From NCBI GenBank assembly GCA_000091205.1, contig AP006501.2: a stretch of 64,000 nucleotides of DNA, one strand, 5' to 3'. This stretch comes from Cyanidioschyzon merolae (taxonomy: Eukaryota). Both the position numbers and the translations under genes were made by a program. Below, piece by piece: positions 22,915 to 64,000 of this stretch; positions within the stretch are counted from its first letter, which is position 1; each line of letters opens with the position of its first letter. Below the pieces are notes generated by a model. The model ran no database searches. It saw nothing but the letters and a program-made list of their open reading frames with translations, and was not told the origin of the DNA.

Positions 22915-25851
22915 ATGGACGACCAAGACAACGTCCCGCGGAAGGCACGGCGAACTGCGGCAGCGAGTGCTGACGACCGAGCCCAACCCAGCGGGAGCGT
23001 TGCAATCACAGATACGGACAACACCGGAAACACTACACCCAGCGCTCAAAGCGTAGATCTCTCAGAGAATCTCATGGACTCGATTCCTCGGCGAGAGAAA
23101 CAGCATATGGAAAAGCAGTCTGCTCCGGGTACCGCGGGTGCAGAAACGCTCGACTACGAGGTGCCGTTGGATAGCCCGTCGCTGCGCTGGCCAGAGAAGA
23201 CGCTCTCCAGCACACGAGCTCAAGAGCTAGAACGAACACTGGCGGCGGAGCCCTGGAACGCAGACGCCTGGATAGCGCTGGTAGAGGAGGCCCAGCGTCA
23301 CCCGCTGACGGAGGCCAAGGCGGTCTACGAACGCGCACTTCACCGGTTCCCGACAGGTGCACGCCTCTGGAAACTCTACCTTGAGCACCTCATTCGGGAA
23401 CAAGCCTTTCCTGAAGCCGAGAAGCGATTCGCTTACGCGCTTCCTCGCTGTTACAGTGTTGAGTTGTGCCAGCTCTATCTGCACTATCTGCGCACCGTAA
23501 AAAAGGCGCCTATCAGCGTTCTCATCGACGCGTTCGAGTATGTGACTGCGCTTTTGCCATACGAACCAGCAAGCGCAAGTCTCTGGAACGACTACATCGC
23601 GCTGCTAATGGCGGTGCCCATACGCAACGCTCATGATGGTGCACAGAGAAACCGCTTGTTGCGAAGCGTGTTGCAGCGAGCTGTGACCCTTCCGTTGCAC
23701 AACCTGGATGCGTTCTGGCGACAATTCGAGCAGTTTGAATCAAGTCAGGGAAAAAGCGGCTCCAGTCATGCATCCGTGGCGACACAACCTTTCCATGGGG
23801 CCTTTCTTCGGGCCCGAGCTGAGGCCCGTGGCCGACGAGCTCGCCGCGAGCACCTCCAGCTCCAGGCGCTGGCGGTTCCTCCGCGACGCGGAGCCGGCAT
23901 CATGGAACAAGCAAAGCGCTGGGCAAAGTACATCCGGGGCGAAGAGGCGAATCCGCACGAGCTCTCCGCTGCTGAACTAGAAGCGCGACTTCGATTCGCC
24001 CATGAGCAGCGGCTTGTCTACATGTATCGCATGCCGGACGCCTGGTTGGAGTATGCGCTCTATCTCGCACATCGCGATGACGGCAACCTGGTGCGCAGCT
24101 ACCCAGAGGCTATTGCGGTGCTGGAGCGAGCAGAACGTGCGCTTCCCGATTGCCTCCTAGTCTATTTCACCCTTGCCCGCCTTTACGAGGAGCTGGATGT
24201 TGAAATTGCTCGTATCGCCGGACAGCAGAAACGCAAGCGCGAGTATTTGCAGGAGGAAATAGAGAGACTCGGGGGATCTCGTCTCTCGAATGATGACGAA
24301 GCTGTGGGCGCTCCCGACGAGCGACCCAGTGACGCTGACCCCGACCAGAGCAACGGTGACGACACCGGCAGCGGCAGCCGCGAGTCGCACATAGCTTCCG
24401 CTCGGCAGTCTGGGTCGCCAAAGCATGGAAGCGGCGCCTCATTGGCGCCCAGCACCGATACAAAAACAGCAGCGACAGAGGCTCAGTCGGAAAGAGACGC
24501 ACCAGCAGCGTCCAAGTCTAGCGGTGCACCAGCGAGCACTGAAGCTGCCGCTACCGGCACCAAGGCGGATACGCACAGTGAAGGCATCGGCAGTCGAGCA
24601 ACCGCCGTCTACGAACGATTGCTTGCACGTGAAAATCTGGATGCAGTCCAACGCACTCATGCCTACATAGAGTACATGTGGTTTAGTCGACGTGTTCTCG
24701 GGGTGTCGGCTGCTCGGTCTATCTTCCGACGGGCGCGCCACGACCCTCGCTGTGCAGATATCGACGCGCTGCCCAACCTCTACCTCGCAGCAGCGACTCT
24801 AGAGACGTATTGCAATCACGAGTCGGGTGTTGCCAAACGTATTTTTGAGCTTGGACTGCGTCACTTGCCGGATTCGACGGAGATGGCGCTGTGCTATTTC
24901 GATTACCTGTGGCAGCGAAACGATGGCAATGAACTGCGCATGTTGATTGGGCGGCTCCTGCAGACAACGCTCCCAGACGATGCCAAGCTGCTGCTCTGTG
25001 ATCGCTGGTTGTCCTTTGAGGCACGCTACGGGAGCGGTGGACTGCAAGGTCTGCGCCTCGCTGAAGCCGAGCGAAAACGCCTGTTCAGCGAGCGGCAACC
25101 GTCGCGCCTCAATGACCTCCTGTTCTATACCTCGTTCCTGCAAAATGTTCCATTGAATGACGACGAACGGGCCCTCATCGAGCAAAACACCAGTGATTCC
25201 AAGTCGGGTTCGCTGGCGGAAGCGCCTCAACGGGACGCAGGTTTCGTCCCCGGCGGCATCATTCCATCCAGTGCGCTGCTCTACGCGCTCGGTTCGAATA
25301 GGCCACAGGCATCGTCCGCGCGTCGACCAGATGACGCAGTTATCGAAGCAGGGCAACCTGTACGCAAGGGAGCCGCTCGTGCCGAGCGAAAAGCACCATC
25401 GCCGGCTGTGGAGAACATCCCGGAGAAGCTGACGCTCGAGGAGGGTCTCGCACGCCTCGTGGGAGCACTGCCACCAGCGCTATTGCAGAGCGCCCCACCG
25501 AACCCCGACTTTGTAATCAGACATTTATTGCGGTTACCAGCGAGCTTTCAAGATCTTGCAGTCTTCAACGGCGGTCGCGAGCTCGACTCGAATGCCGCTG
25601 GACGTCGTCCAGGGCGGGACAAGGAGCGTCCAAGTCGCTCCAGTGGCGACACCTATCCGAGTCGCACTGCTGATGCGAGTCCTGTGCCATTCGCTGAAAG
25701 TCGCCTGTTTCAGCGGTTGCAGCGTGCTCGACAACAAACAAGTCGTGCTCCTCGACCGGACGCTTACGGCTCCGGGACAGACGCAGCGCCTGCTTCGATG
25801 CAAGCACCACCACCGACCCGCGATATCTATCGCAGTCGTCACCGGGGCTGA
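22915..25851 (+). CDS. cleavage stimulation factor subunit 3 (CstF-77 / Rna14 / Suppressor-of-forked) with HAT repeats, 978 aa from ATG 22915
   Basis: The HAT/TPR region aligns with CstF-77: WNADAWIALVEEAQRHPLTEAKAVYERALHRFPTGARLWKLYLEHLIREQAFPEAEKRF...LCQLYLHYLRTVKK, and this continues through the HAT repeats. The listed ORF begins at TTG 22321. The in-frame ATGs are at 22474, 22915 and 23074, and I chose 22915. The C-terminus is a long low-complexity tail. Confidence 0.8.
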   Translation: MDDQDNVPRKARRTAAASADDRAQPSGSVAITDTDNTGNTTPSAQSVDLSENLMDSIPRREKQHMEKQSAPGTAGAETLDYEVPLDSPSLRWPEKTLSSTRAQELERTLAAEPWNADAWIALVEEAQRHPLTEAKAVYERALHRFPTGARLWKLYLEHLIREQAFPEAEKRFAYALPRCYSVELCQLYLHYLRTVKKAPISVLIDAFEYVTALLPYEPASASLWNDYIALLMAVPIRNAHDGAQRNRLLRSVLQRAVTLPLHNLDAFWRQFEQFESSQGKSGSSHASVATQPFHGAFLRARAEARGRRARREHLQLQALAVPPRRGAGIMEQAKRWAKYIRGEEANPHELSAAELEARLRFAHEQRLVYMYRMPDAWLEYALYLAHRDDGNLVRSYPEAIAVLERAERALPDCLLVYFTLARLYEELDVEIARIAGQQKRKREYLQEEIERLGGSRLSNDDEAVGAPDERPSDADPDQSNGDDTGSGSRESHIASARQSGSPKHGSGASLAPSTDTKTAATEAQSERDAPAASKSSGAPASTEAAATGTKADTHSEGIGSRATAVYERLLARENLDAVQRTHAYIEYMWFSRRVLGVSAARSIFRRARHDPRCADIDALPNLYLAAATLETYCNHESGVAKRIFELGLRHLPDSTEMALCYFDYLWQRNDGNELRMLIGRLLQTTLPDDAKLLLCDRWLSFEARYGSGGLQGLRLAEAERKRLFSERQPSRLNDLLFYTSFLQNVPLNDDERALIEQNTSDSKSGSLAEAPQRDAGFVPGGIIPSSALLYALGSNRPQASSARRPDDAVIEAGQPVRKGAARAERKAPSPAVENIPEKLTLEEGLARLVGALPPALLQSAPPNPDFVIRHLLRLPASFQDLAVFNGGRELDSNAAGRRPGRDKERPSRSSGDTYPSRTADASPVPFAESRLFQRLQRARQQTSRAPRPDAYGSGTDAAPASMQAPPPTRDIYRSRHRG

Positions 25852-47041: not shown

Positions 47042-49294
47042 ATGAACGGTGCTGGCGAGATCTTCGACGACCTTACACACTACCGTTTTGCGCAAGCGTT
47101 TGGTGAGCGAGCAACCGCAGAGGTGCCACAGGAAGTGGACCTGATATCAGCCGTTCAGTTCAGTAGAACTGGGGACCTGATCGCGACCGGAGACAAAGGC
47201 GGTCGTGTGGTTATCCTGCAGCGCATTGATGCCGGTCGCGGAGAGGCGTTGCGAAGAGAACAGGTTGCTCGGGCGACGCGTCGATCTCGGTTGGTACAAC
47301 GAGAAACAAGTCGCATCCGAGGTAACAGCAGTAGTTGCTCCAGTCAGGGACGGCTTTCAACTGGTCTGTCACCGGTTCCGATTCCACGTTCACCGCGTAT
47401 CGCCGTGGTGGGCCCCCGCTGGTCCGGCAGCCACAGTAATGGCTCGTATCGACGTGGATCGCTCGACCGGAGTCACCTGTCGAACTGCCACAAGCTGTCC
47501 CGCCTACAAGGCACGCGTGCCCGAGAATCCTACCTAGACGACTCGGGCGGAGAGCATGAGAGCGACTCGAGCGAAAGTAGTGCTAGTGAATCAAGCACCT
47601 CCTCCTCGGATGAGCGGTCATCAGCGGCGAGCACGATGGAAATGGTCTCTCCGCCGGCTGGCGTCAGCCATGGTGCCAACGGCGATGTTGACCTAGAGCT
47701 CAACGAATGTGACGTGCTCATGACGTCGTGTGCGGACGTTGACGACCGTGCCTTTCAGGAGCGCTCGCGAACACACCTCCTCGATGCGCTGCCGGGAATT
47801 CGATCGACTCCTCATGTCCCGCTGGATGACGAGGTCTGGGACGACCGCGAGCGGGCATCCGACGGTCGCAATGCAGATGGAGACGATGGCTTGCGACCAG
47901 ATAGATCACGGATTCCCGCATTTGTACCGGAGTATCGATTCTGGACGCAGTTTCAGTCTCATGAACCGGAATTCGACTACCTCAAGTCACTTGAAATTGA
48001 GGAGAAAATCAATCAAATTCGATGGTGTCGCGATGTATCCGGTGCGTACCGGCTCCTGACTACCAACGATAAGACAATTAAGTTGTGGCGCGTGTTCGAG
48101 CGTCAAGTACGACAGCTTGTGAGTTTCGATAACCAGACTGGCGAAGCCGATACGCGACCAGAATCACATCAAGCGTTGAGGCATCACGATGCGTCTGCAG
48201 ATCCGAGCAGCGCCATCCGGGGTCTCGTAGAGAGGCCTGCAGAGGACTCAAGCGGTCTTGCGTCCGCAGGAATCATTGCGGGTCGCAACGTATGTCTACC
48301 ACGTCTACGCCGCGCCGGCTCTATGGTGATTGCGGTCCCGAAACGGATATTCTCGAATGCGCACGCCTACCACATCAATTCCATATCATTGAATAGTGAT
48401 GAAGAGACCTTCCTCTCGGCAGATGATTTGCGAATTAATATCTGGAATCTAGAAAACTGTAGCACTGGTTTCAATGTCGTGGACATCAAGCCCGAGAACA
48501 TGGAAGACTTGACGGAGGTCATCACTGCAGCGGAATTCCATCCGCATCACTGCAATCTTTTCCTTTACAGCAGCAGTCGCGGTGTTTTGAAACTATGCGA
48601 CTTGCGAGTGCGAGCGCTATGTGATCAGTCGTGTCGCGAGTACGAGGAGCCGGAGGATCCCGCCAATCGCAGTTTTTTCAGCGAAATCATTGCATCCACG
48701 AGCGATGTGACTTTTTCACATTCGGGTCGGTACGTGCTTGCGCGTGACTACATGACGCTGAAGCTCTGGGACATCAACATGGAGAAGCGACCACTTCTCA
48801 CCATTCCCGTGCACGAATCGTTGCGTTCGCGCCTATGCGAACTCTACGAGAACGACTGCATTTTCGACAAGTTTCAGTGCGCTTTCAGCGCGGATGATGC
48901 CAGCGTTCTCACCGGCTCCTACGGGAACCAGTTCCAGGTCTACTCGAGCAAAAGTGGACGAGGCCTCTGTTACGAAGCCAGTGTTGACTTTGTAAGCAGC
49001 GGACGCCCGCCTCGACTGCTCTTTCCCAACGGAATGAGCTGTAGCATTGAAACCATGACCGATGCATCCGGTAGCATGGGCGGGGTGTCGTCGTCGCCGC
49101 CGCTCCTGTCCGCGAGCGGCCTCGGACCAACGATAAGCAGCGGCGTGCCTCCGGAGCCACTGTTGCCCACGCAGAGCCCCAACGCACGAAGGGTACTTCA
49201 CGTCGCAGCGCACCCGCTCGAGAATATTGCGGCCGTCGCTGCAGGTCCTGCGCTCTATCTCTACAACGCCGTCTTGTCACCGTGCTTTCTCTGA
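47042..49294 (+). CDS. protein phosphatase 2A regulatory subunit B (B55/PR55, WD40) with a ~230-aa low-complexity insertion, 750 aa
   Basis: ATG verified at 47042. Conserved B55 blocks are DLISAVQFSRTGDLIATGDKGGRVVILQ, FQSHEPEFDYLKSLEIEEKINQIRW...LLTTNDKTIKLWRV, and the C-terminal VLHVAAHPLENIAAVAAGPALYLY. A stop-free Ser/Asp-rich segment at about 47222-47918 is inserted between the first two blocks. Confidence 0.88.
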   Translation: MNGAGEIFDDLTHYRFAQAFGERATAEVPQEVDLISAVQFSRTGDLIATGDKGGRVVILQRIDAGRGEALRREQVARATRRSRLVQRETSRIRGNSSSCSSQGRLSTGLSPVPIPRSPRIAVVGPRWSGSHSNGSYRRGSLDRSHLSNCHKLSRLQGTRARESYLDDSGGEHESDSSESSASESSTSSSDERSSAASTMEMVSPPAGVSHGANGDVDLELNECDVLMTSCADVDDRAFQERSRTHLLDALPGIRSTPHVPLDDEVWDDRERASDGRNADGDDGLRPDRSRIPAFVPEYRFWTQFQSHEPEFDYLKSLEIEEKINQIRWCRDVSGAYRLLTTNDKTIKLWRVFERQVRQLVSFDNQTGEADTRPESHQALRHHDASADPSSAIRGLVERPAEDSSGLASAGIIAGRNVCLPRLRRAGSMVIAVPKRIFSNAHAYHINSISLNSDEETFLSADDLRINIWNLENCSTGFNVVDIKPENMEDLTEVITAAEFHPHHCNLFLYSSSRGVLKLCDLRVRALCDQSCREYEEPEDPANRSFFSEIIASTSDVTFSHSGRYVLARDYMTLKLWDINMEKRPLLTIPVHESLRSRLCELYENDCIFDKFQCAFSADDASVLTGSYGNQFQVYSSKSGRGLCYEASVDFVSSGRPPRLLFPNGMSCSIETMTDASGSMGGVSSSPPLLSASGLGPTISSGVPPEPLLPTQSPNARRVLHVAAHPLENIAAVAAGPALYLYNAVLSPCFL

Positions 49295-53227: not shown

Positions 53228-56200
53228 CATGGTCCGTTGAGAGGCCAAGAGCCAGACTGAGAATTACAGTTCGAGTATGCCCTTCAAACGTTGACGTGGA
53301 GATTTGTCAAGTTCCGATATATGCCGCTGTGTATTGCACGTGTAGTCCGACGTTGGACGAGCAAAATTCCTCACGGTGATTATCAGATTACACTGAATTT
53401 GCGCGATTCCATAAACAGGTGGTGATGCTGTCAACCAGGGGCGCGACGTTGGCGCTCACAAGTCGTACCCGGAGCGTCTTCGCCCTGGGAGTGCTCAAAA
53501 CGGAGCGAAAGTTCGCGCATAGAGACAGTCTGTGAGCCAGAACTTTTTGAAATGACGGACTGAGGCGGGCCACGCAGTTGCTGCAGGCGACATCAATGCA
53601 GGGCAGCAAGCGCTGAGACTTGCCATCGTGATTCAAGGCCGAACATGGATCCACGGTACTTTTCGGGATCCTCGATCAAGGCCCATTCGAATATATCGTC
53701 GATCCATTATTCGTTATCGGTGGGTATTACCACTTACAGTCCACTGGCTTGTGCTGGGTTTACGCTAGTCGACCTGTCGCCATTGCCTGGTGATAGCGCA
53801 TTCTAAACGGGTGACTGCAGACACAGTGGCCCTTTTGCTGGCACCAACGACGCTGTTTCGGGCATACTGCGAACGTGCACCCATTGACCAGCAGAGCGGG
53901 AACGTTGCATGATCGCATTGTGATCACCGAAAGCAAGTCTGAGTTGCTGCTAATGGCAAACACAGGGGATCTGAAGCGGAATGGTCAGAGAGTCCCCGCG
54001 ACGCCGATACTAATCTCGCACTCGGGGATCCCTGTTTGTAGTCTTTCACAACAATGGTGTTCCACTTTCAGGTCCGTGTCACGAAACGCTTTTTCGCGGT
54101 TAGTAGCAGAAGCGTTCGGGGTGCATTCATTTTGAAGAAATGAAAAATCGGATGGAAAGGTTTGGCCGTGCAAGTCGAGGATCCCAGAGGGCGGACATCG
54201 CCTGGTCGCGGATAAAAGAGGAGAATTCCTCTTCTCGCTGGCCATCAAGCGAAGAAGAGCCAGTGACGAAGAAGCAGTTGGCGGCAGATACGCGAGAAAA
54301 GGTGTTTGTCCGACGCGATGATGACGAGACTATTGTGGCATAGAGTGGACGAGTTCCAGCAATGCTTGCATTGGTGCGTACCACCAATGCCCATGCCTGC
54401 ACGGCGTTCGTGAACTGGTACGTCAACGCCGCCATCAATTATCAGGAGGTGTGCGGTGCTGAAGATGAGACCCGAGCAGCTGACGCGATCCACGTTTATG
54501 GGACAGCCTCTGAGACTCGTACTTTGCTGGGATAAAACCTGAAAACGATAGCAGGTGGCAGGTCAAAAAACTGAACGGACTTGAGTCATCGTGGCGGTCG
54601 CCTCCACTGGAGGGCGGGTCACAGCTTTGCGCGAATGGAGCACAGACGGATCGACGTGTCTCGACTTGATCTCCAGCCGGGATTCTCCGTCCGCTACTTG
54701 TTTCATCGTGGACAATATCGTGTTCCACGAATGCTTCATCAAATGGAAAAACGAGTGCGTACGTGTACAGCAGACAGACTACTCACCAAAAGGATCGTCC
54801 AGAACAAGTCCGTGATCATCGAGTACAGCACTGGGCGCGGAAACCGAGGACTACATTGAGGTGAGCCTTCTGTACCCGTCCATGGCTTGTAATGAGCGAT
54901 GAAGTGAGCGTTCACGCGCCACAGGGCAGCACTCGGAGGAGCATGTATGCGGGACGTGTATGGGACCACCGGACTGGCGTCAGGTGTCATCGTTGCGACA
55001 GCCGCACCGATACCCCGGAGAAGCAAGATGAAAATGGCATGCGAAGCGCAGATCGCAACGTCCTCCTGTGCCTGGAATGCCTCGCGAACAGCCGTAATCG
55101 TCGAAATCCGGACTTGGACGCCGCTTTTAACATCCTTTGACCGCGATCAACGGAACTGGAGCGTGAGATCCGTGCGTTAAAGTCTAGATATAAAGGAGAG
55201 CACAAGACAGTCGTTCCAAAAAAAGCCGCAAAAACCTGATATGTACCAGACTAGATAGAGACCCAAACCAAAGTCTGTTTGCGCGACTTGGGAAACCTGG
55301 TCTATTCTATATTCACATGGATGGAAACGTTCAGGAATATGGATCGGCAGCGAGAACGATCTCGTGGGAACCGCACCTCACGAGACGCAGAGAGCAGTCC
55401 GCTCGAGTCGCGCTGCACGCTCACAACGACGATGCAGATGCTCAGAGCGGACTCGGGTTGACATGACTCGAGCCCTGTACGCCCTCTACGCCTATCTCGC
55501 ACAGAGATGCCCGCAACCTAATCAGGGTCATCCACTCCATCGCGCGAAACGCCCATGAATTTCTCGACCAGATTTGCTTCGATCGCTTCAGTATCGCTGG
55601 CTCGTTCGCGTGCATCACGGAACGTCTTCATTTTCTGCGGGTATGCATCGCACGAGCGGGGACTGCGGTTATCGGGCCGCTCCTACTCTCCATTTTATCG
55701 CAAAGGCGTCCTGTCACCGTGCGTCGAAGGCTGCAGAACGCACAGTGCCGGCTGCAACTGCCTCTGTTGCGCTCGGCAAGCGCCCATTCGCTTCATCCAC
55801 GAAACCCCTGTTCCTAGAGAGCGTTCTGGACTGGGTGTACTGGACCTTCAAGACGTCTTTGGCAAATGCACGATCGCTGCCCTCGTGACCCACATCGTTT
55901 GCGCATTCGGGAGCGTCTGACTCCATGCATTCATTCCGCGAAACGTTAGACCAGGTACCTCAATCGATGCGTATGATACCAGGCGATGGCCAATAACAAC
56001 GTCCTTCTAAGCGATGAGGTCTGCGCAGACACCGCACCACGGCTGGAGCACGTGCATCCTACAAACACATAGACATGCGACCAGGTGCTTTTGCCGCGAA
56101 ACAATCTCGTAACTGCCTTGCAGCGTTCATTCGTTCCTTCGCTGGGTAGCGACGCTCGCTGTAGCTTACAGGGTGCGTTGGGTCTGATTTCGGCAGGTGA

Positions 56201-56428
56201 AGCAGGTTATCTACCAGTTTGGGTTTGTCTGGTTTGGTCTCCACGGGAGGCAAGCCCGGGGCCTGTTCCGCCAAGCGCACCTGGAAGAGGGTCCGTGGTT
56301 GGGCACGGAGGGCGCTCCCGAGGTCACTACGGCACGGTTGTGGATCGCACGACTACATTTGAGCGTTTGCCAGCGGACCCTGCGAAGCCGGTAAACCTCT
56401 CGCCAGAATCAGACCGACAGCTGACTCC

Positions 56429-57514
56429 ATGGGGTCGCTCAGCTCCTGGTTTGCCGCGCCACGCGCACTTCGGTGGACCCGTCTCTGGCTCACGCTGTTG
56501 ATCGTTTTACTCGGGGTGCACCTTCGGACAGATGCGGCACTACCTGTGGCAGAAGTTGCCAGCGGTGACGGCACCTCGGAGAGCGGGAGCTCTGGAACGC
56601 AACCGAACGTGCCTGTACGTGTTCAGCTTCCGTTGGAAGCGAAACGGCAGTCGCTCGAGCGAGAACGCGCTGAACTCCTCAGAGACGCCCAGCTTGGCCG
56701 CCTTAGCCTCCGGGATCCAGCAGTCCAGGAAAAGCTGCGCAAGCTGAACGAGGGCTTGCTCCGATTGCAACCGTTGATACGGAGAAACCCTGCAAATGCG
56801 GAGAGCGAACAACGCCCGAACTCGGGGCCGCCTCCAGACCACGGAACCCAGTCCGGGGAGCATCGACATCGACCACATGAGCTCGGCGAGGAACTCGCCA
56901 TCGAGTGCTTGACACCGGACCTCAGCAGCTGGGAACCGATGCAGTGTCGCAACCAACAAGATCCAGTTGTTATTCGCTTTGGTCTGGATACGGATTTCCA
57001 GTGCAGCTGGCCACTCGAGAGCGATGCTGCATACACACTCTTGCGTGATGCACTAGCCATGCAGCGCGCTATTCACTGCCGTGTGCCGCTGGACAACGAG
57101 CTATCCGCGGGACACTTGCGTTTTTTCGCTCCAGTAACGATCACGCTCTGGGGCATTGCCGAGGGCTCTCATCTCCATGTGAATACTCATGTGAACTTCG
57201 TTTTCCATGCCCACCGGGGATACATTCTAGGTGCAGCAGCGTATTCTGTGCGAGATCATTTTCAGATTGTACAGCCTGGTGGTGTACTACAGCTTCATGG
57301 CAAAGTTCACTGGTTTGACGGCCACGCGTTTGTGCCGTACGTTCACGAACCTTTCCGCCTGCCGCCAGCGGCGGCGCGTCGTCTGACCAGTGCCGTACTG
57401 GCATTGTGGCTTTCAACGCTCGTGCTCAGCGGAGTCGTGTTCACGCTATTCTACAAGAAAGTACTGAAAGTGCGTTTGATTCGTCGACTTGACCCCACGT
57501 TTAAAGCTGAATAG
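56429..57514 (+). CDS. hypothetical membrane protein (N-terminal signal/anchor, C-terminal TM helix), 361 aa
   Basis: ATG verified at 56429. It has an N-terminal hydrophobic segment (LWLTLLIVLLGV) and a C-terminal helix (LALWLSTLVLSGVVFTLF), and no recognised family. The stop is TAG at 57512-57514. Confidence 0.4.
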   Translation: MGSLSSWFAAPRALRWTRLWLTLLIVLLGVHLRTDAALPVAEVASGDGTSESGSSGTQPNVPVRVQLPLEAKRQSLERERAELLRDAQLGRLSLRDPAVQEKLRKLNEGLLRLQPLIRRNPANAESEQRPNSGPPPDHGTQSGEHRHRPHELGEELAIECLTPDLSSWEPMQCRNQQDPVVIRFGLDTDFQCSWPLESDAAYTLLRDALAMQRAIHCRVPLDNELSAGHLRFFAPVTITLWGIAEGSHLHVNTHVNFVFHAHRGYILGAAAYSVRDHFQIVQPGGVLQLHGKVHWFDGHAFVPYVHEPFRLPPAAARRLTSAVLALWLSTLVLSGVVFTLFYKKVLKVRLIRRLDPTFKAE

Positions 57515-57518
57515 GTCT

Positions 57519-58736
57519 ATGCAGAGCGAAGGCACTGTTTACCGGCACCGAGCGCGTTGCACGCTGTTTGTCGGGGTCGCTGCTCCGTTCGGACTATGCA
57601 CCACGAAGAGGCACCTAGGGCTCCTTTCGGCACAACGGCCGAGTCAACGGTATCTGCGTTCAGGCCTGGGTCCTGTGGACAGCTCCATGGGGTCTCGCAG
57701 CAGCGCTCGAGTGTCGGCGGCGCTGGTACACGACACTCGCTGGGGAGTCGGTACGAGCGCTGCGCAGCCGAGGGTATCAGAAACGATCTTGTCACGAGGA
57801 CTGGCGACGATTTTTTCGCTTCTGCTCTGGCAAGACTTGCAGGATACGGCAGCGTATGCGGCAGAGCATACCAGGACGCAAGCACGAGCTCAGTGGGTGA
57901 ACCACCACACCGAGGAAGCGACGCGCTGGGGATCGTTACCCCTGCTTGCGGACTCAACACAGCCCCAGGGTCAAGACGGGAACCTGTCAACCAAACTTCT
58001 CCCTGATGTTGTGGATACCGACGGTCAACCGCGTGTCATTCTTGATCTGGCTCGAGCTCTGAGCTCCTTCGAATATGAGCAGCTGCGCACTCGAATCCAC
58101 CACATCGAGGCTACCACTGGATACCGGGTTCGTATTCTGACACAACGCTTTGAAACGGTTGGGCGAGCGATCAGCAGCTATTTCGGGTTACAGGATCAAC
58201 GGAGTATACTCATTGTGCTCGATGAGCGGAGCGGCAATGTGCTCAATTTTCGCGTTGGTGATCAAGTTACAGCGCGTTTTCCGTCCTCGTTCTGGCTGGA
58301 GTTACAGGGACGGTACGGCAATCAGTTTTACGTACGAGAGCACGGCGAGTACGGTGTGCTGGATGCCTGCATTCGGGCGATGGAGACTTGTCTCCAAGAT
58401 GGGCGTATCTGCCGCTTTGTACCTGGATTCGGACGCGATCAGTGGGCACTAAGTTTTCTCATGTCACTTCTCGGAGGGGCGGTGATCGGGTTTACGGCAC
58501 GCACCCCACAGGACGGGAAAGAGGCGAGTACGCCGAACTGGCGCTGGGTTCTGGTGTTCTCCCCGCTCTGGGCGATATTTCTAGTCTCGTTCGGCACACT
58601 ACCGATTGTGGCACGAGAGGGCTGGTGGAATCGCGACCTCATCGCGAACTGGGCTGGAGCTGTTCTCGTGGCAACCGCGTTTTGGTACGCCATTCCGCGT
58701 GTGTTTCCGAATGGCCCCGGGGATCGTGCTCGCTGA
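57519..58736 (+). CDS. TPM-domain protein (TLP18.3 / Psb32 / MOLO-1 founding family) with C-terminal membrane segments, ~405 aa
   Basis: The listed ORF starts at TTG 57489 and the first ATG is at 57519; a later candidate is ATG 57687. A TPM-like core is present (TTGYRVRILTQRFETVGRAISSYFGLQDQRSILIVLDERSGNVLNFRVGDQV...). The N-terminal extension resembles a transit peptide and the C-terminus has hydrophobic helices. Confidence 0.5.
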   Translation: MQSEGTVYRHRARCTLFVGVAAPFGLCTTKRHLGLLSAQRPSQRYLRSGLGPVDSSMGSRSSARVSAALVHDTRWGVGTSAAQPRVSETILSRGLATIFSLLLWQDLQDTAAYAAEHTRTQARAQWVNHHTEEATRWGSLPLLADSTQPQGQDGNLSTKLLPDVVDTDGQPRVILDLARALSSFEYEQLRTRIHHIEATTGYRVRILTQRFETVGRAISSYFGLQDQRSILIVLDERSGNVLNFRVGDQVTARFPSSFWLELQGRYGNQFYVREHGEYGVLDACIRAMETCLQDGRICRFVPGFGRDQWALSFLMSLLGGAVIGFTARTPQDGKEASTPNWRWVLVFSPLWAIFLVSFGTLPIVAREGWWNRDLIANWAGAVLVATAFWYAIPRVFPNGPGDRAR

Positions 58737-59904
58737 CCTCCTTCGTACCGTGAACGTCTCGCTCGAGTGCGATCACCTGCAAGGTGTATCAGCGGGGTTC
58801 GGGGGGCGTTCTCGATATGCAGTGGTGAAATCGCATACGGCATGGTAGGTCATGCATCGCAGTCTGTATAGGATGGTGTCGAGTGGACGCTGAATTGCTG
58901 CGGTTGGCGTTCACTGTTCTCCAGGTGCTCCAGAAGGTGCACGCCAACACAGCGTTGGGTATTGCGCTGGTGCGTATGCTGCCGGTAAGCGTGCGCTCGT
59001 CGAAAAAGCGGGACTTGTGAAAGGCATCCACGTGGAAAGCGTTCATGTGCATATACGAAAGATGCCGTGAAACAGAATACGTTTGCGCTTCCATGCTATA
59101 TAACGGGTCCATGAGCACAGCGGCATCATCATCATCTGTACAGAGCATGCCGGAGTGTCCGCAGCAGGAGACGTGACACGCTTTCTGGTCCTTGCACGGG
59201 AGCAAGCGCTTGCCATGGAATCATCGTATCTACAGGAGTGCGCTCGAATACGAGTAGCTGTGCGTATGGCTGGCAGCGTACGCCGTTGTACGACCCTCGA
59301 AACACAAATGAAAGCGTCTCCTTCACATACATTTGCACACGATTCTGATTTGAACGTATTTGGCGCACGAGTTTCAGACAGGCTCGGTGACCCTGCGTCT
59401 TGAGCGCGTGTCAACGCTATCGTCTTTCAGGGCGAACGACTGGCATGACGCCAGTAGCGGAGTCGGGTTCAGCGGTCGTCATGGCGCACAGATTCATCCG
59501 GCGGTGCATGAACGCCAGGTACGCACCAGGAAGAGATAGAGCGGATCATTCGTGCAATGGAGCTGAGGCTAGCACCATTTGATGCAGCCAGTGGTTTGCG
59601 AAATGCGATTCTACGCATGCACCGAATGGTATCGGTCGAGGTCTGTTTCAACCGCACGGCATAGAGCAGGTCCAACGATAGTGTCGAGCGCGCGGAGCCT
59701 GCAACGCGATGTCCGGCACCGAGAGGCATGACACAGAGCGTGCCAGGCGCGGTATAAAAACGCAACTGCTGACTTGAGTCTGCTGTTTGGCCTTGCAACA
59801 GATCCATTCGGTGCTCGGTCGCAATCATTCATTTGGCAAGGTTTCCTCTGACCCCAGTCATCGTGACCTTTGCATCGCGCGTGAGTGCTGCGGTCTCTTA
59901 GCGC

Positions 59905-60660
59905 TCAGAAAAACAGACGCTTGGGAACAGTCATCGGCAAATAGATACGCGGCGGCCTGTATCGCATATCTGCATACGCAATAGGTCTTGGATGCATTGT
60001 CACCGTTGTAGGGTTTTCGTCACCGAAACTGAAACGAGTGCTAAGCGCGTCCCACTCTTCGCGAAAGCTCCCTGCGAGCGACGCCAGCGATATACCCCGA
60101 GCGGTTGGCTCGACATCGCACCAGGGAGCGGGCAACAGGTCACCCGGGGAACGGGGCACCTGGCAGTTCGGGACACCTCGACTGAGAGCAAGCGTCCGAC
60201 TCAGCGCCTTGTAAAACTCGTCCAGCCCAGCACACATCTGCGCCTCAATGTCCAACCGGGCTGCGTGCGGGTAAAAGGCACTCTCAACAAACGGTAGAAC
60301 TTGACACTCCAGGTGGTTGTGCGAGCTCCAGAACCAGTCCGCGAGCACCCGTAACTCGCCTAGCGCCGACAAGGGCACCTCAAACGCTCGTAAAGTCACG
60401 CTTGGTTGTGGTGTCCATACGAATACCAACCGTTGTAGTGTCAGGAAGCATTCACCGACGCCAAAGAGTTCGAGACTACAACACAGCTCTTGGGTACTCG
60501 AGTTGGCGGCAGGCTGGGCACGCAGCCGAAAGCTCACAGTCGTCTCTCGATAAACAAGCAGGTCAGGGTTACCGAGCTCTCTCGAGGCACCACGTCCGTC
60601 AGCGTTGTGTGCTGGTGTCACCTGCCCGGTTGCTAGCGGAAGCAACGGGTTCAAGGCCAT
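59905..60660 (-). CDS. hypothetical protein (251 aa)
   Basis: ATG verified at 60658-60660. The composition looks globular and no family is recognised. It is divergent from the large RRM-protein ORF that opens 36 nt away. Confidence 0.3.
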   Translation of the reverse strand: MALNPLLPLATGQVTPAHNADGRGASRELGNPDLLVYRETTVSFRLRAQPAANSSTQELCCSLELFGVGECFLTLQRLVFVWTPQPSVTLRAFEVPLSALGELRVLADWFWSSHNHLECQVLPFVESAFYPHAARLDIEAQMCAGLDEFYKALSRTLALSRGVPNCQVPRSPGDLLPAPWCDVEPTARGISLASLAGSFREEWDALSTRFSFGDENPTTVTMHPRPIAYADMRYRPPRIYLPMTVPKRLFF

Positions 60661-60800
60661 ACCCGAGAAGGTCCATAACCCGGGGAGGCGTGTAGCTTGC
60701 CCCGCGAGTCTCGCTACAGAGACGCCGTTCCGGATGTGCGACGCCGCCTCCTTGGTGCAAAGGGTCCCGTTTAGGAAAGTTTCGCAGCGAAGGGTACCCT

Positions 60801-63800
60801 ATGCCGAGAACAGGCTCGGACAGGACAAAATTGAGTGACACTTTATCAGGGACACCTCAAGCAGAGAGAACTGTGCGGCGCTCCTGTCGTCTGGCCCAGA
60901 AAACTGGTCTCGAGCCGGTGGTACCACCAACGACAAGTGACAGGGTGCGAAGCGCACGAACGGAGTCGTCGAGTGATCCTAGCTCGGAGCCTGATAAAGA
61001 GCCAAGCTCTTTGAAAGTCTGTCAAAGGCAACGCGCTGGTAACAGAGGTACTGTGTCGCAGAAAGATGGTGCTTCGGAGACGGAGCAGGCGCCTGTCGCA
61101 CCAGTAGAGACGCCGGTGCGCCTACCAGTCGTCCGCCGACGATCCCGGCGAGTGCAAGCCGCAAAAGATGTTCCAGTTAGTGAACCAGAAACCGCAACAT
61201 CGAAGGAGCACCAGACGGCACGAGACAGTGCGGCTCCAGGCATGCACCATAGCGCGAATAACGCAAACATACCCTCAGCGCAAGCAGGTTCAGCCTCCGT
61301 AGCTTTTGCACAGACCACGCGCAAGGTATTCCCGACTGAGGAGCCTGCTTCAGATTCCAGACACCCAGCATCAGCATCAGCAGAATCAGCATCAGCATCA
61401 GCAGAATCAGCATCAGCAGAAGAGCGTACACCTGCAATTTCGGCGAATGCGTCTGTGCTGGGGACTGGAGCGCCTACCTCCCCATCAAATGGGGTGCTTG
61501 CCCCTGACTACAGACGTTCAGCATCCACACGAGACCGCCGGTTGTCGGAGCAAGTCGACAGCGCACGCCCCAGGGCGGAATGGCTTCGCGAGGCGCCGCC
61601 ATTATCAGATGCTTGCCCTTCGTTACAGCAGCCTACAGCGCAATGGAATCGATCCCAGCGGAAACGTGACCCATGCTCCGATTCACTGGGAACATCCGGC
61701 TCGCCTTCGAGACGCCGTCGCGTGATCAACACAGCGAGAGCGTCAGAACGGGTTACCTCTTCGACATCAGTGCCACCTACACCGACATTGTCACCGGCTA
61801 GTACTCAGGCGCTGGCCGCTAGTGCGGCATCCACGGCAGATACAGGATACACTGCAGCAGGCAAGCTCGATGAGCGCTGCGCTCTGTCAGCGAGTACCGA
61901 TGATGGCGGCGACGTACCTGCACACCGTCCATGTTCATCGACAGCGCCTGCCTATCGGGATGCATCAGAGCGGCCAGCGGAAAAGCGCTGCTCCACCGAC
62001 GTCCGCGAATATCGCTCCGGGCATGCAGCGTCGACCTGGAATGCAGCACATGGACGTGCCGCTGGCTTGGTGCCGCATTCATCCCAGAATTCGGCTACGC
62101 AGTCAGCAGCAGCAGCAGCAGCAGCACAGGTATCGCACCCAGTTGCTCCAAAGATGCGCAATCAAGGATCTAGGTGTCTGTCCGAGCACGCTCAAAGTGA
62201 GTCTTCTCCCGATCTGCGTGAGATGGTATTGAAGCAGCGCATCCGAAGAGCGCTCGCGAGTGTACGAGAACCTTTGCCAACGACAGCAGGGGACACAGGT
62301 GCGGAACCAGCGCTCAGCGATGCTTCATGTGCGCGCTTTCCCGTCCAGCAGTCTACGACAGTTTATGCGGATGCTCGTTCACAGATGTCGTGTGCCTCAG
62401 GTCTGGACAGGCCCCATGGGCGCTCGTCGAATCAGCAGCACCAGCACGAGCACCATCAACAGCAACTGCGGATTCGCCAAAGTTCGCCACAGAGCCAGGT
62501 TGCGCGTGATGCTCACAGGTGTGCTGGCGCTGGCCCGCTCGAGCACCAGTTCCGTAGCCGTAATTGCACCCCAGATGACAGGCACTCGAGTCACCGTGAA
62601 TCTCCGCAGCGAAAGCGAATGCCAAATGAGCGGTCTGCAATGATCGCTCAAGCACCTGTTCGTGCAGTCTTTCCAGCGCAAGGCACGGCACTGGTAGACC
62701 CGCATGCATCGAAACCGCTCCTCATGGCATCGAAACATGAATGGGCGTTGATGGCAAGTGCGAAGAAAGCGAGCCCATCCCCGATGCCGCTTCGAGCTCA
62801 CGTGCCTGCCGCAACTGAACCACGTGAGCACTACAGACCGCCGGATATCGGGCGCGTTGCCGATGAAGCCGCCAAACTGGTCAAGGCTGCTGCTGCTGCT
62901 GGTGCTGGTGTTGCTGGTGGTGGTGGTGCTTCCACTGAGGCGGAGCCCCCGGCCCGGATGGCCACGAGAGCCGCCCTCGGTGTTGCAGCGCATTCTTCGG
63001 ACGCTGAAGCAGAGCTGCTCTGCATGCTGTGGCTGCATGGTCCGGATGTGTCGAGTCAGCCAGCTCGACGGCTAATCCTGCGGAACCTGCCTCCTTCAAC
63101 AAATGAGCACGACCTGTATAGCTATCTGGTGCACGTCATGGCGGCTACATGTTGTTTCGCCTACGATTATATCGGATGGCATCAACGGTTTGCGCATTGG
63201 CATGCAAAGCAACGTCGAGCTGCTGGTATGCTCGCTGCAGCAGGCCGATACAGACAGCAGAGCGAACGGCTTCCGGAGCGGAACGACGCTCGGGGTCCCG
63301 GTGTCAATGAATCCTCAAGAGGCCAAGCTCAGAGCAGTCTTCTGCGGGAGCTTCGTTTAACGCCCGTCTGGGAACTGCAGGTGCTTTGGAAAAGTCGCAC
63401 CGCCTTTGTCGAGTGTCTCACTGTCCAGGAAACGACTGGCCTGGTGCAGTTGAGCGGTTTGCTCTTCCAGGGATACCAAATAGTGATCTCGCGACCGCGT
63501 GAATTCGACGCGGAACTCTGGTTGAGCTCGAATCCACTTCCAGCGGAAGCAGCTGAGGCTCTGCGACTGCCTCCAGCTCGTTTTCACCGAGCCGCTGTGG
63601 CGGAGAGTCAAATGAGCCCCAACGTTTGGCCTGCATCCGATTCACGGACACCAGCAGGAGCGTTTTACGGCCATATCCGCGGCATTCCTCTTCATCTCAC
63701 CGAATATACGATGATTCAGTGGTTACGCACAGCGCTGGTCGGTTGGCCGTGGCAGCTCAGTGCGTTTCATTTGGCCAGAGAGGGGCGCTCAGGCCTGAGT

Positions 63801-64000
63801 CGGGGCTTTGCGCACTTCCGCCTGGATCGATGCAGAGCCGCAGACTGCACCTCGTTGGACCAGGGCGTCACAAATGCGACGCAAGCAGCTTCTGAGATGC
63901 GCACCGTTGCGTCAGAGCGTCTCGCAACAGTGGATCCCGAAGTGGAACGCCTTGTCGAGCATCTGCGTTCGCATCTGCTACCAGGGCTCTCACGTCCGCT
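60801..64000 (+). CDS. large RNA-binding protein with low-complexity N-terminal ~700 aa and RBM5/RBM10/SUA-like RRM(s); 3' partial (continues beyond window)
   Basis: This ORF is not in the supplied track. In the frame whose codons begin at positions divisible by 3, I checked every taa/tag/tga from 60696 (after TAG 60693-60695) to 64000 and none is in frame. That makes at least 1101 codons. The first ATG is at 60801 and another is at 61242. C-terminal RRM signatures are ARRLILRNLPPSTNEHDLYSYL...KSRTAFVECLTVQE...LLFQGYQIVISRP and GHIRGIPLHLTEYTMIQWL...LAREGRSGLSRGFAHFRLDRCRAADCTS. The second compares well with RBM5 RRM1 (IMLRGLP...TE.DI...SGQSRGFAFVEF). Confidence 0.6.
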   Translation, partial: MPRTGSDRTKLSDTLSGTPQAERTVRRSCRLAQKTGLEPVVPPTTSDRVRSARTESSSDPSSEPDKEPSSLKVCQRQRAGNRGTVSQKDGASETEQAPVAPVETPVRLPVVRRRSRRVQAAKDVPVSEPETATSKEHQTARDSAAPGMHHSANNANIPSAQAGSASVAFAQTTRKVFPTEEPASDSRHPASASAESASASAESASAEERTPAISANASVLGTGAPTSPSNGVLAPDYRRSASTRDRRLSEQVDSARPRAEWLREAPPLSDACPSLQQPTAQWNRSQRKRDPCSDSLGTSGSPSRRRRVINTARASERVTSSTSVPPTPTLSPASTQALAASAASTADTGYTAAGKLDERCALSASTDDGGDVPAHRPCSSTAPAYRDASERPAEKRCSTDVREYRSGHAASTWNAAHGRAAGLVPHSSQNSATQSAAAAAAAQVSHPVAPKMRNQGSRCLSEHAQSESSPDLREMVLKQRIRRALASVREPLPTTAGDTGAEPALSDASCARFPVQQSTTVYADARSQMSCASGLDRPHGRSSNQQHQHEHHQQQLRIRQSSPQSQVARDAHRCAGAGPLEHQFRSRNCTPDDRHSSHRESPQRKRMPNERSAMIAQAPVRAVFPAQGTALVDPHASKPLLMASKHEWALMASAKKASPSPMPLRAHVPAATEPREHYRPPDIGRVADEAAKLVKAAAAAGAGVAGGGGASTEAEPPARMATRAALGVAAHSSDAEAELLCMLWLHGPDVSSQPARRLILRNLPPSTNEHDLYSYLVHVMAATCCFAYDYIGWHQRFAHWHAKQRRAAGMLAAAGRYRQQSERLPERNDARGPGVNESSRGQAQSSLLRELRLTPVWELQVLWKSRTAFVECLTVQETTGLVQLSGLLFQGYQIVISRPREFDAELWLSSNPLPAEAAEALRLPPARFHRAAVAESQMSPNVWPASDSRTPAGAFYGHIRGIPLHLTEYTMIQWLRTALVGWPWQLSAFHLAREGRSGLSRGFAHFRLDRCRAADCTSLDQGVTNATQAASEMRTVASERLATVDPEVERLVEHLRSHLLPGLSRP

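What the first reader, a model, noticed from the sequence alone, without database searches (positions are those of the whole stretch)
60696..64000. Unlisted open reading frame of at least 1101 codons running off the 3' end; encodes an RRM-type RNA-binding protein
The ORF track lists only ORFs with a stop inside the window. By hand-checking every taa/tag/tga between 60696 and 64000 against the frame I found that one + frame is completely open over 3.3 kb. The chance of that in random 60%-GC sequence is about 1e-15. The C-terminal part carries two recognisable RRM-like modules. The second resembles RBM5/RBM10/plant SUA RRM1 (RNP2 IRGIPL, RNP1 SRGFAHFRL). The N-terminal ~700 residues are Ser/Ala/Pro/Gln-rich and are built partly from CAGCAT, CAG and GCT microsatellites. 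This is probably the largest gene in the window and it was invisible to the provided annotation aid. A splicing-regulator-type protein in such an intron-poor genome is also of interest.
Basis: seen in the sequence. Interest (0 to 1): 0.6.

Follow-up and report, generated by a model that had tools for sequence, protein, structure and literature searches.

The report
Red-alga U2AF large-subunit splicing gene
The open frame is real, but it is the first 1066 codons of an already annotated Cyanidioschyzon merolae gene for a very divergent U2AF65/Mud2-type splicing factor, not an RBM5/RBM10-type regulator; its only unusual feature is a second protein-binding (UHM) domain encoded just past the window's end.

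Summary

The window comes from Cyanidioschyzon merolae 10D. From the ATG at 60801 the frame is 1066/1066 identical to BAM82995.1 / XP_005539031.1 (1316 aa), annotated "similar to pre-mRNA splicing factor U2AF large chain". The literature lists a CmMud2/U2AF65 among the factors kept in this alga's reduced spliceosome, which lacks U1.

The family assignment was wrong in detail:
- Pfam RRM_1 finds nothing in the window part, and the full protein has no OCRE or G-patch domain.
- More sensitive tests show that the two in-window modules are U2AF65 RRM1 and RRM2. hhalign against canonical U2AF large subunits gives 99.6% probability, E = 3.9e-24.
- RRM1 carries a ~76-aa insertion and has lost two of three aromatic RNA-contact residues.

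Beyond the window lie two tandem UHM domains; canonical U2AF65 has one. This layout is conserved in Cyanidiococcus, Cyanidium and a third lineage.

The ~740-aa N-terminus is a basic Ala/Ser/Arg/Pro-rich region of low hydrophobicity. Conserved motifs near its start favour ATG 60801.

Verdict: a known gene, mostly ordinary. The tandem UHM is a modestly interesting variant and may not have been described.

The parts
60801..64000 (+). CDS, codons 1-1066 (plus 2 nt) of the C. merolae U2AF-large-subunit-like gene (BAM82995.1 / XP_005539031.1, 1316 aa). The CDS continues about 750 nt beyond the window.
   Evidence: 1066/1066 identical to P0010. The frame is open.
60696..60800 (+). In-frame open stretch upstream of the start codon. 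It is probably 5' UTR or promoter rather than coding sequence, and lies in a ~140-bp divergent intergenic region (60661-60800).
   Evidence: All full-length orthologs and strain variants begin MPR... at the ATG equivalent to 60801. Sequence read.
60876..60902 (+). Conserved N-terminal motif RRSCRLAQK (aa 26-34). It lies between the two candidate ATGs.
   Evidence: P0040 has TLRRSARLAKK at the same position. Cyanidiococcus has RRRSARLAGK in the upstream open frame.
60801..63017 (+). N-terminal region of about 740 aa: low-complexity, basic, Ala/Ser/Arg/Pro-rich and low in hydrophobic residues. It is RS-like in composition but not a classical RS domain.
   Evidence: Composition A16/S13/R10.5/P9 %, net charge +23, hydrophobic fraction 0.10-0.26. 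It cannot be aligned between genera except for small islands, yet length and composition are conserved in P0040. Against an environmental strain there are 8 nonsynonymous and 2 synonymous changes and only in-frame indels.
61366..61421 (+). CAGCAT / 21-nt coding microsatellite (ASASAES repeats). Its length varies between strains (9-nt indel).
   Evidence: TRF; indel at 61397 against L001.
62099..62126 (+). GCA x9 microsatellite (poly-Ala), with a 3-nt length polymorphism.
62211..62246 (+). Conserved island DLREMVLKQRIR (aa 471-482) inside the low-complexity N-terminal region.
   Evidence: Nearly identical in Cyanidiococcus and in P0040, at the equivalent position (aa 476-487).
62886..62928 (+). 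GCT/GGT microsatellite (AAAAAGAGVAGGGG), with a 3-nt length polymorphism.
63063..63506 (+). RRM1 (aa 755-902), homologous to U2AF65 RRM1. Two of its three RNP aromatic positions are degenerate.
63141..63368 (+). Insertion of about 76 aa in RRM1 between helix a1 and strand b2, where canonical U2AF65 has about 13 aa. Its start, CCF[AS]YDY..W.Q, is conserved across Cyanidiales.
   Evidence: Alignments. Low pLDDT in the model. Conserved in P0039, P0040 and P0047.
63507..63659 (+). Inter-RRM linker (aa 903-953). It can be aligned with the U2AF65 linker (PPARF..AA..VS).
   Evidence: hhalign aligned columns. AF2 predicts short helices at pLDDT about 83.
63660..64000 (+). RRM2 (aa 954-1066 of about 1072; the last b-strand lies just past the window). 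It has a 35-55 aa variable insertion after b3 (63822-63944).
   Evidence: PDB profile search: U2AF65 RRM2 best at 1.4e-3. hhalign runs through RNP1. AF2. RNP aromatic residues retained.
59905..60660 (-). Divergently transcribed neighbour, a 251-aa protein with no known domain. It defines the upstream boundary of the gene.
   Evidence: No Pfam hit. Conserved and syntenic in Cyanidiococcus, tblastn 6e-33.

Best explanation
The frame is the 5' four-fifths of the single-exon C. merolae gene for the U2AF large subunit ortholog (U2AF65/U2AF2, yeast Mud2).

Shown here:
- The protein has a ~740-aa basic, low-complexity N-terminus.
- It has a U2AF65-type RRM1-linker-RRM2 unit, which lies in the window.
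- Beyond the window it has two tandem U2AF-homology motifs (UHMs).

Inferred from what is established for U2AF65 and Mud2:
- RRM1-RRM2 contact the intron RNA between the invariant ACUAACC branch site and the 3' AG.
- A UHM binds the Trp-containing ULM of the branch-point-binding protein SF1/Msl5, so the two proteins recognise the branch region cooperatively.
- A UHM then contacts SF3b155/Hsh155 to bring in the U2 snRNP.
- The basic N-terminal region plays the part of the RS domain, promoting RNA-RNA annealing.

Hypothesis: the extra UHM and the degenerate RRM1 shift the protein from RNA reading towards protein bridging, in a spliceosome that lacks U1 and U2AF35. For example, it might hold two ULM partners at once.
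For: Identity:
- EF2 and SGAT in the window are exact matches to C. merolae 10D proteins.
- The ORF is 1066/1066 identical to BAM82995.1, 'similar to pre-mRNA splicing factor U2AF large chain'.

Family:
- TIGR01642 U2AF_lg gives E = 2.6e-28 for the full protein and 1.4e-8 for the in-window part alone. The rival CC1 model gives only 1e-9, on the UHM only, and there is no half-pint hit.
- An exhaustive phmmer search of 1.84e9 proteins with the in-window part finds, outside the Cyanidiales, only proteins whose best family is U2AF_lg. Five of them score above the curated cut-off.
- The nearest of these are U2AF large subunits from red algae and Rhodelphis.
- hhalign of the in-window profile against canonical U2AF gives 99.6%, E = 3.9e-24, 36% identity over 174 columns.
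- Per-module PDB profile searches give U2AF65 RRM1 at 8e-7, U2AF65 RRM2 at 1.4e-3, and the U2AF65 UHM at 1.9e-14 and 3.1e-9.
- AF2 with a 16-sequence alignment gives four RRM-fold domains, mean pLDDT 72.5.
- Foldseek gives U2AF65 RRM1,2-RNA complexes at E = 1.6e-9 with target-normalised TM 0.50.

UHM hallmarks: the R-x-F motif and the acidic helix are invariant in both modules across four Cyanidiales sequences.

Orthologs with the same layout and synteny occur in Cyanidiococcus, in P0040 and in Cyanidium.

Literature: CmMud2/U2AF65 and CmMsl5 are retained, while U2AF35 and U1 are absent (PMC10158995, PMC4829280). The branch site is an invariant ACUAACC (PMC2483917 and bioRxiv 10.64898/2026.05.17.725761).
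Against: - The score is far below NCBIfam's curated cut-off (98.8 vs 310.3 bits).
- Pfam RRM_1 misses both in-window RRMs.
- RRM1 has lost two of three canonical aromatic RNA-contact residues, so pyrimidine-tract binding may be weak or altered.
- No ULM-like tryptophan and no classical RS repeat are found in the N-terminus.
- I could not read the table that gives the accession of the published CmMud2, so its identity with this gene is inferred from the annotation.
- No transcript, proteomic, RNA-binding or protein-binding data were available.
- The structural model was built from an alignment that contains canonical U2AF sequences, so it is not fully independent of the sequence evidence.
Confidence: 0.88

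Rival explanations
1. It is an RBM5/RBM10/plant SUA-type alternative-splicing regulator. Such a protein would have RRMs plus OCRE, zinc-finger and G-patch domains downstream.
For: The RBM10 RRM (2lxi_A) appears as a weak hit to the RRM2 profile, E = 0.042. The RNP1-like SRGFAHF resembles many RRMs.
Against: The full-length protein has no OCRE, G-patch or zinc-finger hit in Pfam, only RRM_1. U2AF65 RRM2 scores better than RBM10 (1.4e-3). No RBM5/10 hit appears in the phmmer search against the PDB. All distant relatives are U2AF_lg.
Confidence: 0.01
2. It is a Prp24/SART3-like four-RRM U6 snRNP recycling factor, filling the reported absence of a U6-specific protein in C. merolae.
For: It has four RRM-fold domains in series. 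Yeast Prp24 is the top Foldseek hit by E-value, 8.5e-12. There are weak Prp24 hits to the RRM1 profile, E = 0.04-0.3. Table 1 of PMC4829280 lists 0 U6-specific proteins in C. merolae.
Confidence: 0.02
3. It is the ortholog of another RRM-RRM-UHM splicing factor, RBM39/CAPER (CC1-like) or PUF60 (half-pint), rather than of U2AF65.
For: These proteins share the RRM-RRM-UHM architecture. TIGR01622 SF-CC1 gives E = 1.1e-9. The PUF60 and RBM39 UHMs are among the PDB hits.
Against: The CC1 hit covers only the UHM and scores 37.8 bits against 98.8 for U2AF_lg, and there is no half-pint hit. The RRM1 profile hits only U2AF65 RRM1 at significant E. hhalign to canonical U2AF gives 99.6%, including the linker. 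The nearest relatives are annotated red-algal U2AF large subunits.
Confidence: 0.04
4. The gene is real, but the long N-terminal region is not translated. Translation would start at 61242 or at a later ATG, and the upstream open frame would be a by-product of composition.
For: The N-terminal residues are weakly constrained, with 8 nonsynonymous and 2 synonymous changes against an environmental strain. GC3 is low (0.50) and GC2 high (0.63), unlike typical genes in the window. The region cannot be aligned between genera at BLAST level. No expression data were available.
Against: About 740 codons without a stop are maintained in three lineages, with similar length and composition: net charge +23 and +25, R 10.5%, S 13.3-13.4%. 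All strain indels are in frame. The conserved motifs MPR...RRSxRLAxK (aa 1-34) and DLREMVLKQRIR (aa 471-482) sit at matching positions, and the first lies upstream of ATG 61242. The neighbouring divergent gene leaves only ~140 bp upstream of 60801.
Confidence: 0.12

Closest known systems
Human U2AF65 (U2AF2) and canonical U2AF large subunits (NCBIfam TIGR01642), including those of the red algae Compsopogon and Timspurckia and of Rhodelphis
   Same: RRM1-linker-RRM2 is homologous over 174 columns at 36% identity. There is a C-terminal UHM with an acidic helix and an R-x-F motif. The N-terminal region is basic and Arg/Ser-rich. The expected role is branch-site / 3' splice-site recognition together with SF1.
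   Different: The protein is 1316 aa against about 460-690. It has a ~76-aa insertion in RRM1 and a 35-55-aa insertion in RRM2. Two of three RRM1 RNP aromatic residues are lost. A second UHM follows the first, which no canonical sequence in the alignment has. There is no ULM-type tryptophan for a small subunit. The score is below the family's curated cut-off.
Saccharomyces cerevisiae Mud2
   Same: From general knowledge, not tested here: Mud2 is a highly divergent U2AF65 ortholog in an intron-poor organism with a near-invariant UACUAAC branch site. It has no U2AF35 partner and no U2AF35-binding ULM, and it works through the BBP/Msl5 partnership. The literature names the C. merolae protein CmMud2.
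   Different: Mud2 has a single C-terminal UHM-type RRM and no ~740-aa N-terminal extension. Yeast retains the U1 snRNP, which C. merolae lacks. No Mud2 sequence or structure was compared here.
Other UHM proteins: PUF60, RBM39/CAPER-alpha, SPF45, HTATSF1, U2AF35
   Different: In my own recollection each of these has one UHM per polypeptide, and the literature search found no paper mentioning a tandem or second UHM. Here two UHMs sit in tandem about 10 residues apart.

Membership tests
U2AF large subunit (U2AF65/U2AF2/Mud2; NCBIfam TIGR01642) | Tandem RRM1-linker-RRM2 homologous to that of U2AF65 | tested here: met
U2AF large subunit (U2AF65/U2AF2/Mud2; NCBIfam TIGR01642) | C-terminal UHM (acidic helix A, R-x-F motif, degenerate RNPs) | tested here: met
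U2AF large subunit (U2AF65/U2AF2/Mud2; NCBIfam TIGR01642) | Whole-protein score above the curated family cut-off | tested here: not met
   98.8 bits against a cut-off of 310.3. The ortholog P0040 scores 90.9 bits. U2AF_lg is still the best-scoring family by about 60 bits.
U2AF large subunit (U2AF65/U2AF2/Mud2; NCBIfam TIGR01642) | Nearest relatives outside the clade are bona fide U2AF large subunits of related taxa (orthology) | tested here: met
   Exhaustive search. All ten hits scanned have U2AF_lg as their best family, and five score above the cut-off. They include Compsopogon, Timspurckia and Rhodelphis proteins named U2AF large subunit. No formal phylogeny was made.
U2AF large subunit (U2AF65/U2AF2/Mud2; NCBIfam TIGR01642) | N-terminal RS domain | tested here: inconclusive
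   The N-terminus is basic (net +23), with R 10.5%, S 13.4% and 15 RS/SR dipeptides in 724 aa, but it has no classical RS repeat array.
U2AF large subunit (U2AF65/U2AF2/Mud2; NCBIfam TIGR01642) | ULM (Trp in a basic context) that binds the small subunit U2AF35 | tested here: not met
   No N-terminal Trp has more than 2 basic residues in the preceding 10 positions. This fits the reported absence of U2AF35 in C. merolae.
U2AF large subunit (U2AF65/U2AF2/Mud2; NCBIfam TIGR01642) | Canonical aromatic RNP1/RNP2 residues for pyrimidine-tract binding | tested here: inconclusive
   RRM1: Y/F->I/V in RNP2 and F/Y->T/M in RNP1, with one Phe kept. RRM2: aromatics kept, except F->H in C. merolae only.
U2AF large subunit (U2AF65/U2AF2/Mud2; NCBIfam TIGR01642) | Binds intron 3' regions and SF1/Msl5; required for pre-spliceosome formation | not testable with these tools
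   No binding, CLIP or genetic data were available. The CmMsl5 and CmHsh155 sequences could not be fetched to look for ULMs.
Pfam RRM_1 (PF00076) | HMM hit above the gathering score | tested here: not met
   In-window part: 0 families at E <= 10. The full protein does hit (4.3e-15, 55.8 bits), but only through the two UHMs at about aa 1150-1312, outside the window.
RBM5/RBM10/SUA | OCRE, zinc-finger and G-patch domains downstream of the RRMs; RRMs most similar to RBM5/10 | tested here: not met
   Pfam on the complete 1316-aa protein finds only RRM_1. RBM10 scores E = 0.042 against 1.4e-3 for U2AF65.
CC1-like / RBM39 (TIGR01622) and half-pint / PUF60 (TIGR01645) | Full-length family model is the best hit | tested here: not met
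   SF-CC1 scores 37.8 bits (cut-off 231.65), on the UHM only. Half-pint gives no hit.
Prp24 / SART3 | Four RRMs with Prp24-specific sequence and inter-domain arrangement, including the occluded RRM4 | tested here: not met

The most novel reading that the evidence does not exclude
The U2AF large subunit of the Cyanidiales (Cyanidioschyzon, Cyanidiococcus, Cyanidium) has acquired a second functional UHM, together with an RRM1 that is degenerate for RNA binding and carries a conserved insertion. One polypeptide could then hold two ULM partners at once, for example SF1/Msl5 and SF3b155/Hsh155. That would hard-wire the branch-site hand-over in a spliceosome that has lost U1, U2AF35 and most other early factors. 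A tandem UHM was not mentioned in any paper I could search.
Probability: 0.3. Interest if true: 0.55.

Novelty: already known. Interest (0 to 1): 0.3.

Why it matters
For the genome scan this closes the item. The 'invisible' ORF is an artefact of an ORF lister that needs an in-window stop. The gene is annotated in GenBank/RefSeq as U2AF-large-chain-like, and a CmMud2/U2AF65 is counted among the ~65 splicing proteins of C. merolae.

The biological context still gives it some value. C. merolae and its relatives splice only 39-54 introns, without U1 or U2AF35, and how introns are first recognised there is an open question (PMC10158995). The protein that reads the branch-site / 3' end region is therefore a key player.

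Its conserved peculiarities are concrete, testable handles on that question in a genetically tractable alga:
- a second UHM;
- a conserved insertion in a degenerate RRM1;
- a ~740-aa basic tail.

Tried and rejected
1. **Pfam on the in-window frame:** no hit. This does not show absence of RRMs, because profile and fold tests then found them.
2. **Word-indexed homolog searches:** all three returned only the 90% cluster or the Cyanidiococcus fragment. Candidate selection was probably swamped by low-complexity words. The exhaustive search was what worked.
3. **Single-sequence AlphaFold of aa 718-1313 of P0001 (= aa 721-1316 in BAM82995.1 numbering):** mean pLDDT 35.5. The model is unusable and was discarded.
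5. **afdb50 fold library:** not available, so the wider distribution of the tandem UHM, for example in Galdieria, could not be surveyed.
6. **Intron hypothesis for the frame switch in the Cyanidiococcus ortholog:** three GT..AG candidates keep the frame open. None has the GUAAGU or ACUAAC consensus. One extra T in a T6 run restores the conserved FRLD, and the intact ortholog P0040 reads straight through. I rejected the intron in favour of a homopolymer sequencing error.
7. **Locus tag or accession of the published CmMud2:** Stark et al. 2015 is not held, and no supplements are held for the 2023 review or the 2026 preprint. The searches found nothing.
8. **ULM search in the N-terminus:** no convincing candidate.
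9. **tRNA and Rfam scans of the window:** nothing.
Full report
**1. Observation**

Translating 60696-64000 on the + strand gives 1101 codons with no stop.
- The last in-frame stop is at 60693. The other two + frames have 26 and 43 stops between 60000 and 64000.
- With the region's composition (GC 0.589) the chance of no stop in 1101 codons is about 4e-17. With the stop density seen in the other two + frames it is 5e-9 to 6e-18.
- The ORF lister omits the frame only because it runs off the window.
- The first two in-frame ATGs are at 60801 and 61242.
- The CAGCAT, GCA (= CAG) and GCT microsatellites are present at 61366-61421, 62099-62126 and 62886-62928.

**2. Organism and gene identity**

- The window's EF2 and serine-glyoxylate aminotransferase ORFs are exact matches to Cyanidioschyzon merolae 10D proteins BAM82986.1 and BAM82987.1, on a 1,282,939-bp chromosome.
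- From ATG 60801 the frame is 1066/1066 identical to BAM82995.1 / XP_005539031.1 (P0010, 1316 aa). NCBI and UniProt name it 'similar to pre-mRNA splicing factor U2AF large chain'.
- The CDS therefore continues about 750 nt past the window.
- A JGI metagenome contig (L001) is 99.23% identical over 8.8 kb and contains the whole gene.
- The literature on the reduced C. merolae spliceosome lists U2AF65/Mud2 and Msl5/BBP among the retained factors, and reports U1 and U2AF35 as absent (PMC4829280, PMC10158995).
- I could not retrieve the accession table, so I infer rather than show that 'CmMud2' is this gene.

**3.

- Pfam finds nothing in the in-window translation, even at E <= 10.
- The RRM_1 hits of the complete protein (4.3e-15) lie at about aa 1150-1312, beyond the window.
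- The complete protein has no OCRE, G-patch or zinc-finger domain. This removes the RBM5/RBM10/SUA idea.

**4. What the in-window modules are**

- *NCBIfam.* The full-length U2AF_lg model (TIGR01642) is the best family: 2.6e-28 and 98.8 bits for the whole protein, and 1.4e-8 for the in-window part alone. The CC1-like model reaches only 1e-9, on the UHM, and half-pint/PUF60 gives no hit. All scores are far below the curated cut-off of 310 bits.
- *Exhaustive search.* A phmmer search of 1.84 billion representatives with aa 725-1066 gave only 15 hits at E <= 1e-3. Two are close orthologs. Of the other 13, eight were scanned against NCBIfam and all have U2AF_lg as their best family. Five of them score 322-361 bits, above the cut-off.
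- *Source organisms.* The named hits include the red algae Compsopogon and Timspurckia and the red-algal sister group Rhodelphis.
- *Profile-profile comparison.* The in-window Cyanidiales alignment against canonical U2AF large subunits gives 99.6% probability, E = 3.9e-24 and 36% identity over 174 columns. It spans RRM1, the inter-RRM linker and RRM2 through RNP1.
- *PDB profile searches.* U2AF65 RRM1 scores 8e-7, in two pieces separated by a ~76-residue insertion. U2AF65 RRM2 scores 1.4e-3, with RBM10 only 0.042.
- *RNP residues.* In Cyanidiales RRM1, two of the three canonical aromatic positions are replaced (Y/F->I/V, F/Y->T/M). RRM2 keeps them. Together with the insertions, this explains the Pfam miss.

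**5. Beyond the window: two UHMs**

- Residues 1126-1215 and 1232-1316 each match the U2AF65 UHM best, over its full length (E = 1.9e-14 and 3.1e-9). PUF60, U2AF35, SPF45, RBM39 and HTATSF1 UHMs follow.
- The R-x-F motif and the acidic residues of helix A are invariant in both modules in four Cyanidiales sequences.
- In an alignment with canonical U2AF large subunits, the first UHM aligns with the canonical C-terminal UHM. The second is an extra module that none of the canonical proteins has.

**6. Structure**

- Single-sequence AlphaFold failed (pLDDT 35.5).
- With a 16-sequence alignment the model has mean pLDDT 72.5 and four b-a-b-b-a-b domains at pLDDT about 85-95. Low confidence falls exactly on the RRM1 insertion, the RRM2 insertion and the RRM2-UHM1 linker.
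- Foldseek puts Prp24 first by E-value, but with TM 0.14-0.20. U2AF65 RRM1,2-RNA complexes reach target-normalised TM 0.50.
- The alignment behind the model contains canonical U2AF proteins, so this evidence is supportive rather than independent.

**7. Orthologs and the start codon**

- *Cyanidiococcus yangmingshanensis.* It has the gene in the same neighbourhood. The published models split it. The RRM block and the UHM block are each 54% identical to C. merolae but lie in different frames. The switch sits at a T6 run, and one extra T restores the conserved FRLD and a 935-aa ORF. I read this as a sequencing error, not an intron.
- *P0040.* This is a third lineage: an intact 1323-aa ortholog, 46% identical over aa 718-1316.
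- *P0047.* This is from Cyanidium caldarium. It keeps the start of the RRM1 insertion and both UHMs.
- *The N-terminus.* The ~720-740-residue N-terminus cannot be aligned between genera, but it is conserved in length and composition (R 10.5%, S 13.3-13.4%, net charge +23 and +25). It has two conserved islands at matching positions: MPR...T[VL]RRS[CA]RLA[QK]K at aa 1-34 and DLRE[MI]VLKQRIR at aa 471-482.
- *Start codon.* The first island lies upstream of ATG 61242, and the conserved divergent neighbour (59905-60660, minus strand) leaves only ~140 bp. ATG 60801 is therefore the likely start.
- *Strain comparison.* Against the environmental strain the N-terminal 724 codons show 8 nonsynonymous and 2 synonymous changes and three in-frame microsatellite indels. 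The residues are weakly constrained, but the frame is maintained.

**8. Mechanism**

Shown here: the architecture, which is a basic low-complexity N-terminus, a U2AF65-type RRM1-linker-RRM2 unit and two UHMs.

Inferred from established U2AF65/Mud2 biology:
- The RRMs contact the intron between the invariant ACUAACC branch site (PMC2483917; preprint 10.64898/2026.05.17.725761) and the 3' AG.
- A UHM binds the ULM of SF1/Msl5 for cooperative branch-region recognition, and later contacts SF3b155/Hsh155 to recruit U2.
- The basic N-terminus substitutes for an RS domain.

Hypothesis: the second UHM allows two ULM partners to be held at once. This would compensate for missing early factors in a lineage without U1 or U2AF35.

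**9. Novelty**

- The gene and its family assignment are already in public databases, and a CmMud2/U2AF65 is in the literature.
- No paper in the searchable library mentions a tandem or second UHM.
- The 2023 review of reduced spliceosomes contains no mention of UHM or ULM.
- The 2026 preprint reports six Cyanidiales splicing proteins with 'novel sequence regions' in a supplement I could not read. The architectural peculiarities may or may not be described there.
- Overall this is a known gene and the scan result is ordinary. There is a modestly interesting side observation that is cheap to test.

Noticed in passing
window 22321-25851 (+): A 1176-aa ORF encodes a Suf/CstF-77/Rna14-type HAT-repeat protein (Pfam Suf 8.6e-92). 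It is another mRNA-processing factor and the second-largest ORF in the window.
   Followed up: partly
window 59905-60660 (-): A 251-aa ORF with no Pfam domain is conserved and syntenic in Cyanidiococcus (tblastn 6e-33). Its start lies only ~140 bp from ATG 60801, so the two genes share a very small divergent promoter region.
   Followed up: partly
L002 (Cyanidiococcus yangmingshanensis GCA_013995675.1, VWRR01000007.1) 4800-8807: The U2AF-like gene is split over at least three reading frames. One switch is at a T6 homopolymer (position 7830), and the N-terminal part lies in yet another frame (about 4950-6053). The same assembly's EF2 is also fragmented, and one fragment is mis-named 'pre-tRNA nuclear export protein'. 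Homopolymer errors probably affect many gene models in that assembly.
   Followed up: partly
L001 (JGI metagenome 3300050386, Ga0506592_000145) vs window 55177-64000: This environmental contig is 99.23% identical to strain 10D over 8.8 kb. The coding microsatellites in the gene differ in length by 9, 3 and 3 nt, always in frame. The 90% cluster holds 64 member sequences, and the 15 listed come mostly from JGI metagenomes, so natural C. merolae populations appear to be well sampled.
   Followed up: partly
P0047 (Cyanidium caldarium EukProt EP00166 P002889): The predicted protein has a garbled, Gly/Ala/Arg-rich middle section of about 200 aa where RRM1's second half and RRM2 should be. This looks like a frameshifted or mis-spliced gene model. 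The flanking RRM1 N-half and both UHMs are intact.
   Followed up: no
window 47042-49294 (+): A 750-aa WD40 protein has a long Ser-rich low-complexity insertion (roughly aa 70-330) between WD40 matches. This is another case of low-complexity expansion inside a conserved protein in this genome.
   Followed up: no
window 56429-57514 and 57489-58736 (+): Two consecutive same-strand ORFs overlap by 26 nt as listed; the second is listed from a TTG, so the real overlap may be smaller or absent. They are a 361-aa protein with no domain and a 415-aa protein with a weak TPM-domain hit. The same pair precedes the U2AF-like gene in Cyanidiococcus.
   Followed up: partly
window 1-64000: No tRNA gene (ARAGORN) and no Rfam family at gathering threshold anywhere in the 64 kb. 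The other identifiable genes are ordinary housekeeping genes: EF2, SGAT, ArgJ, condensin Cnd3, an SPB4-like DEAD-box helicase, a UbiA prenyltransferase and TRAP-beta.
   Followed up: yes
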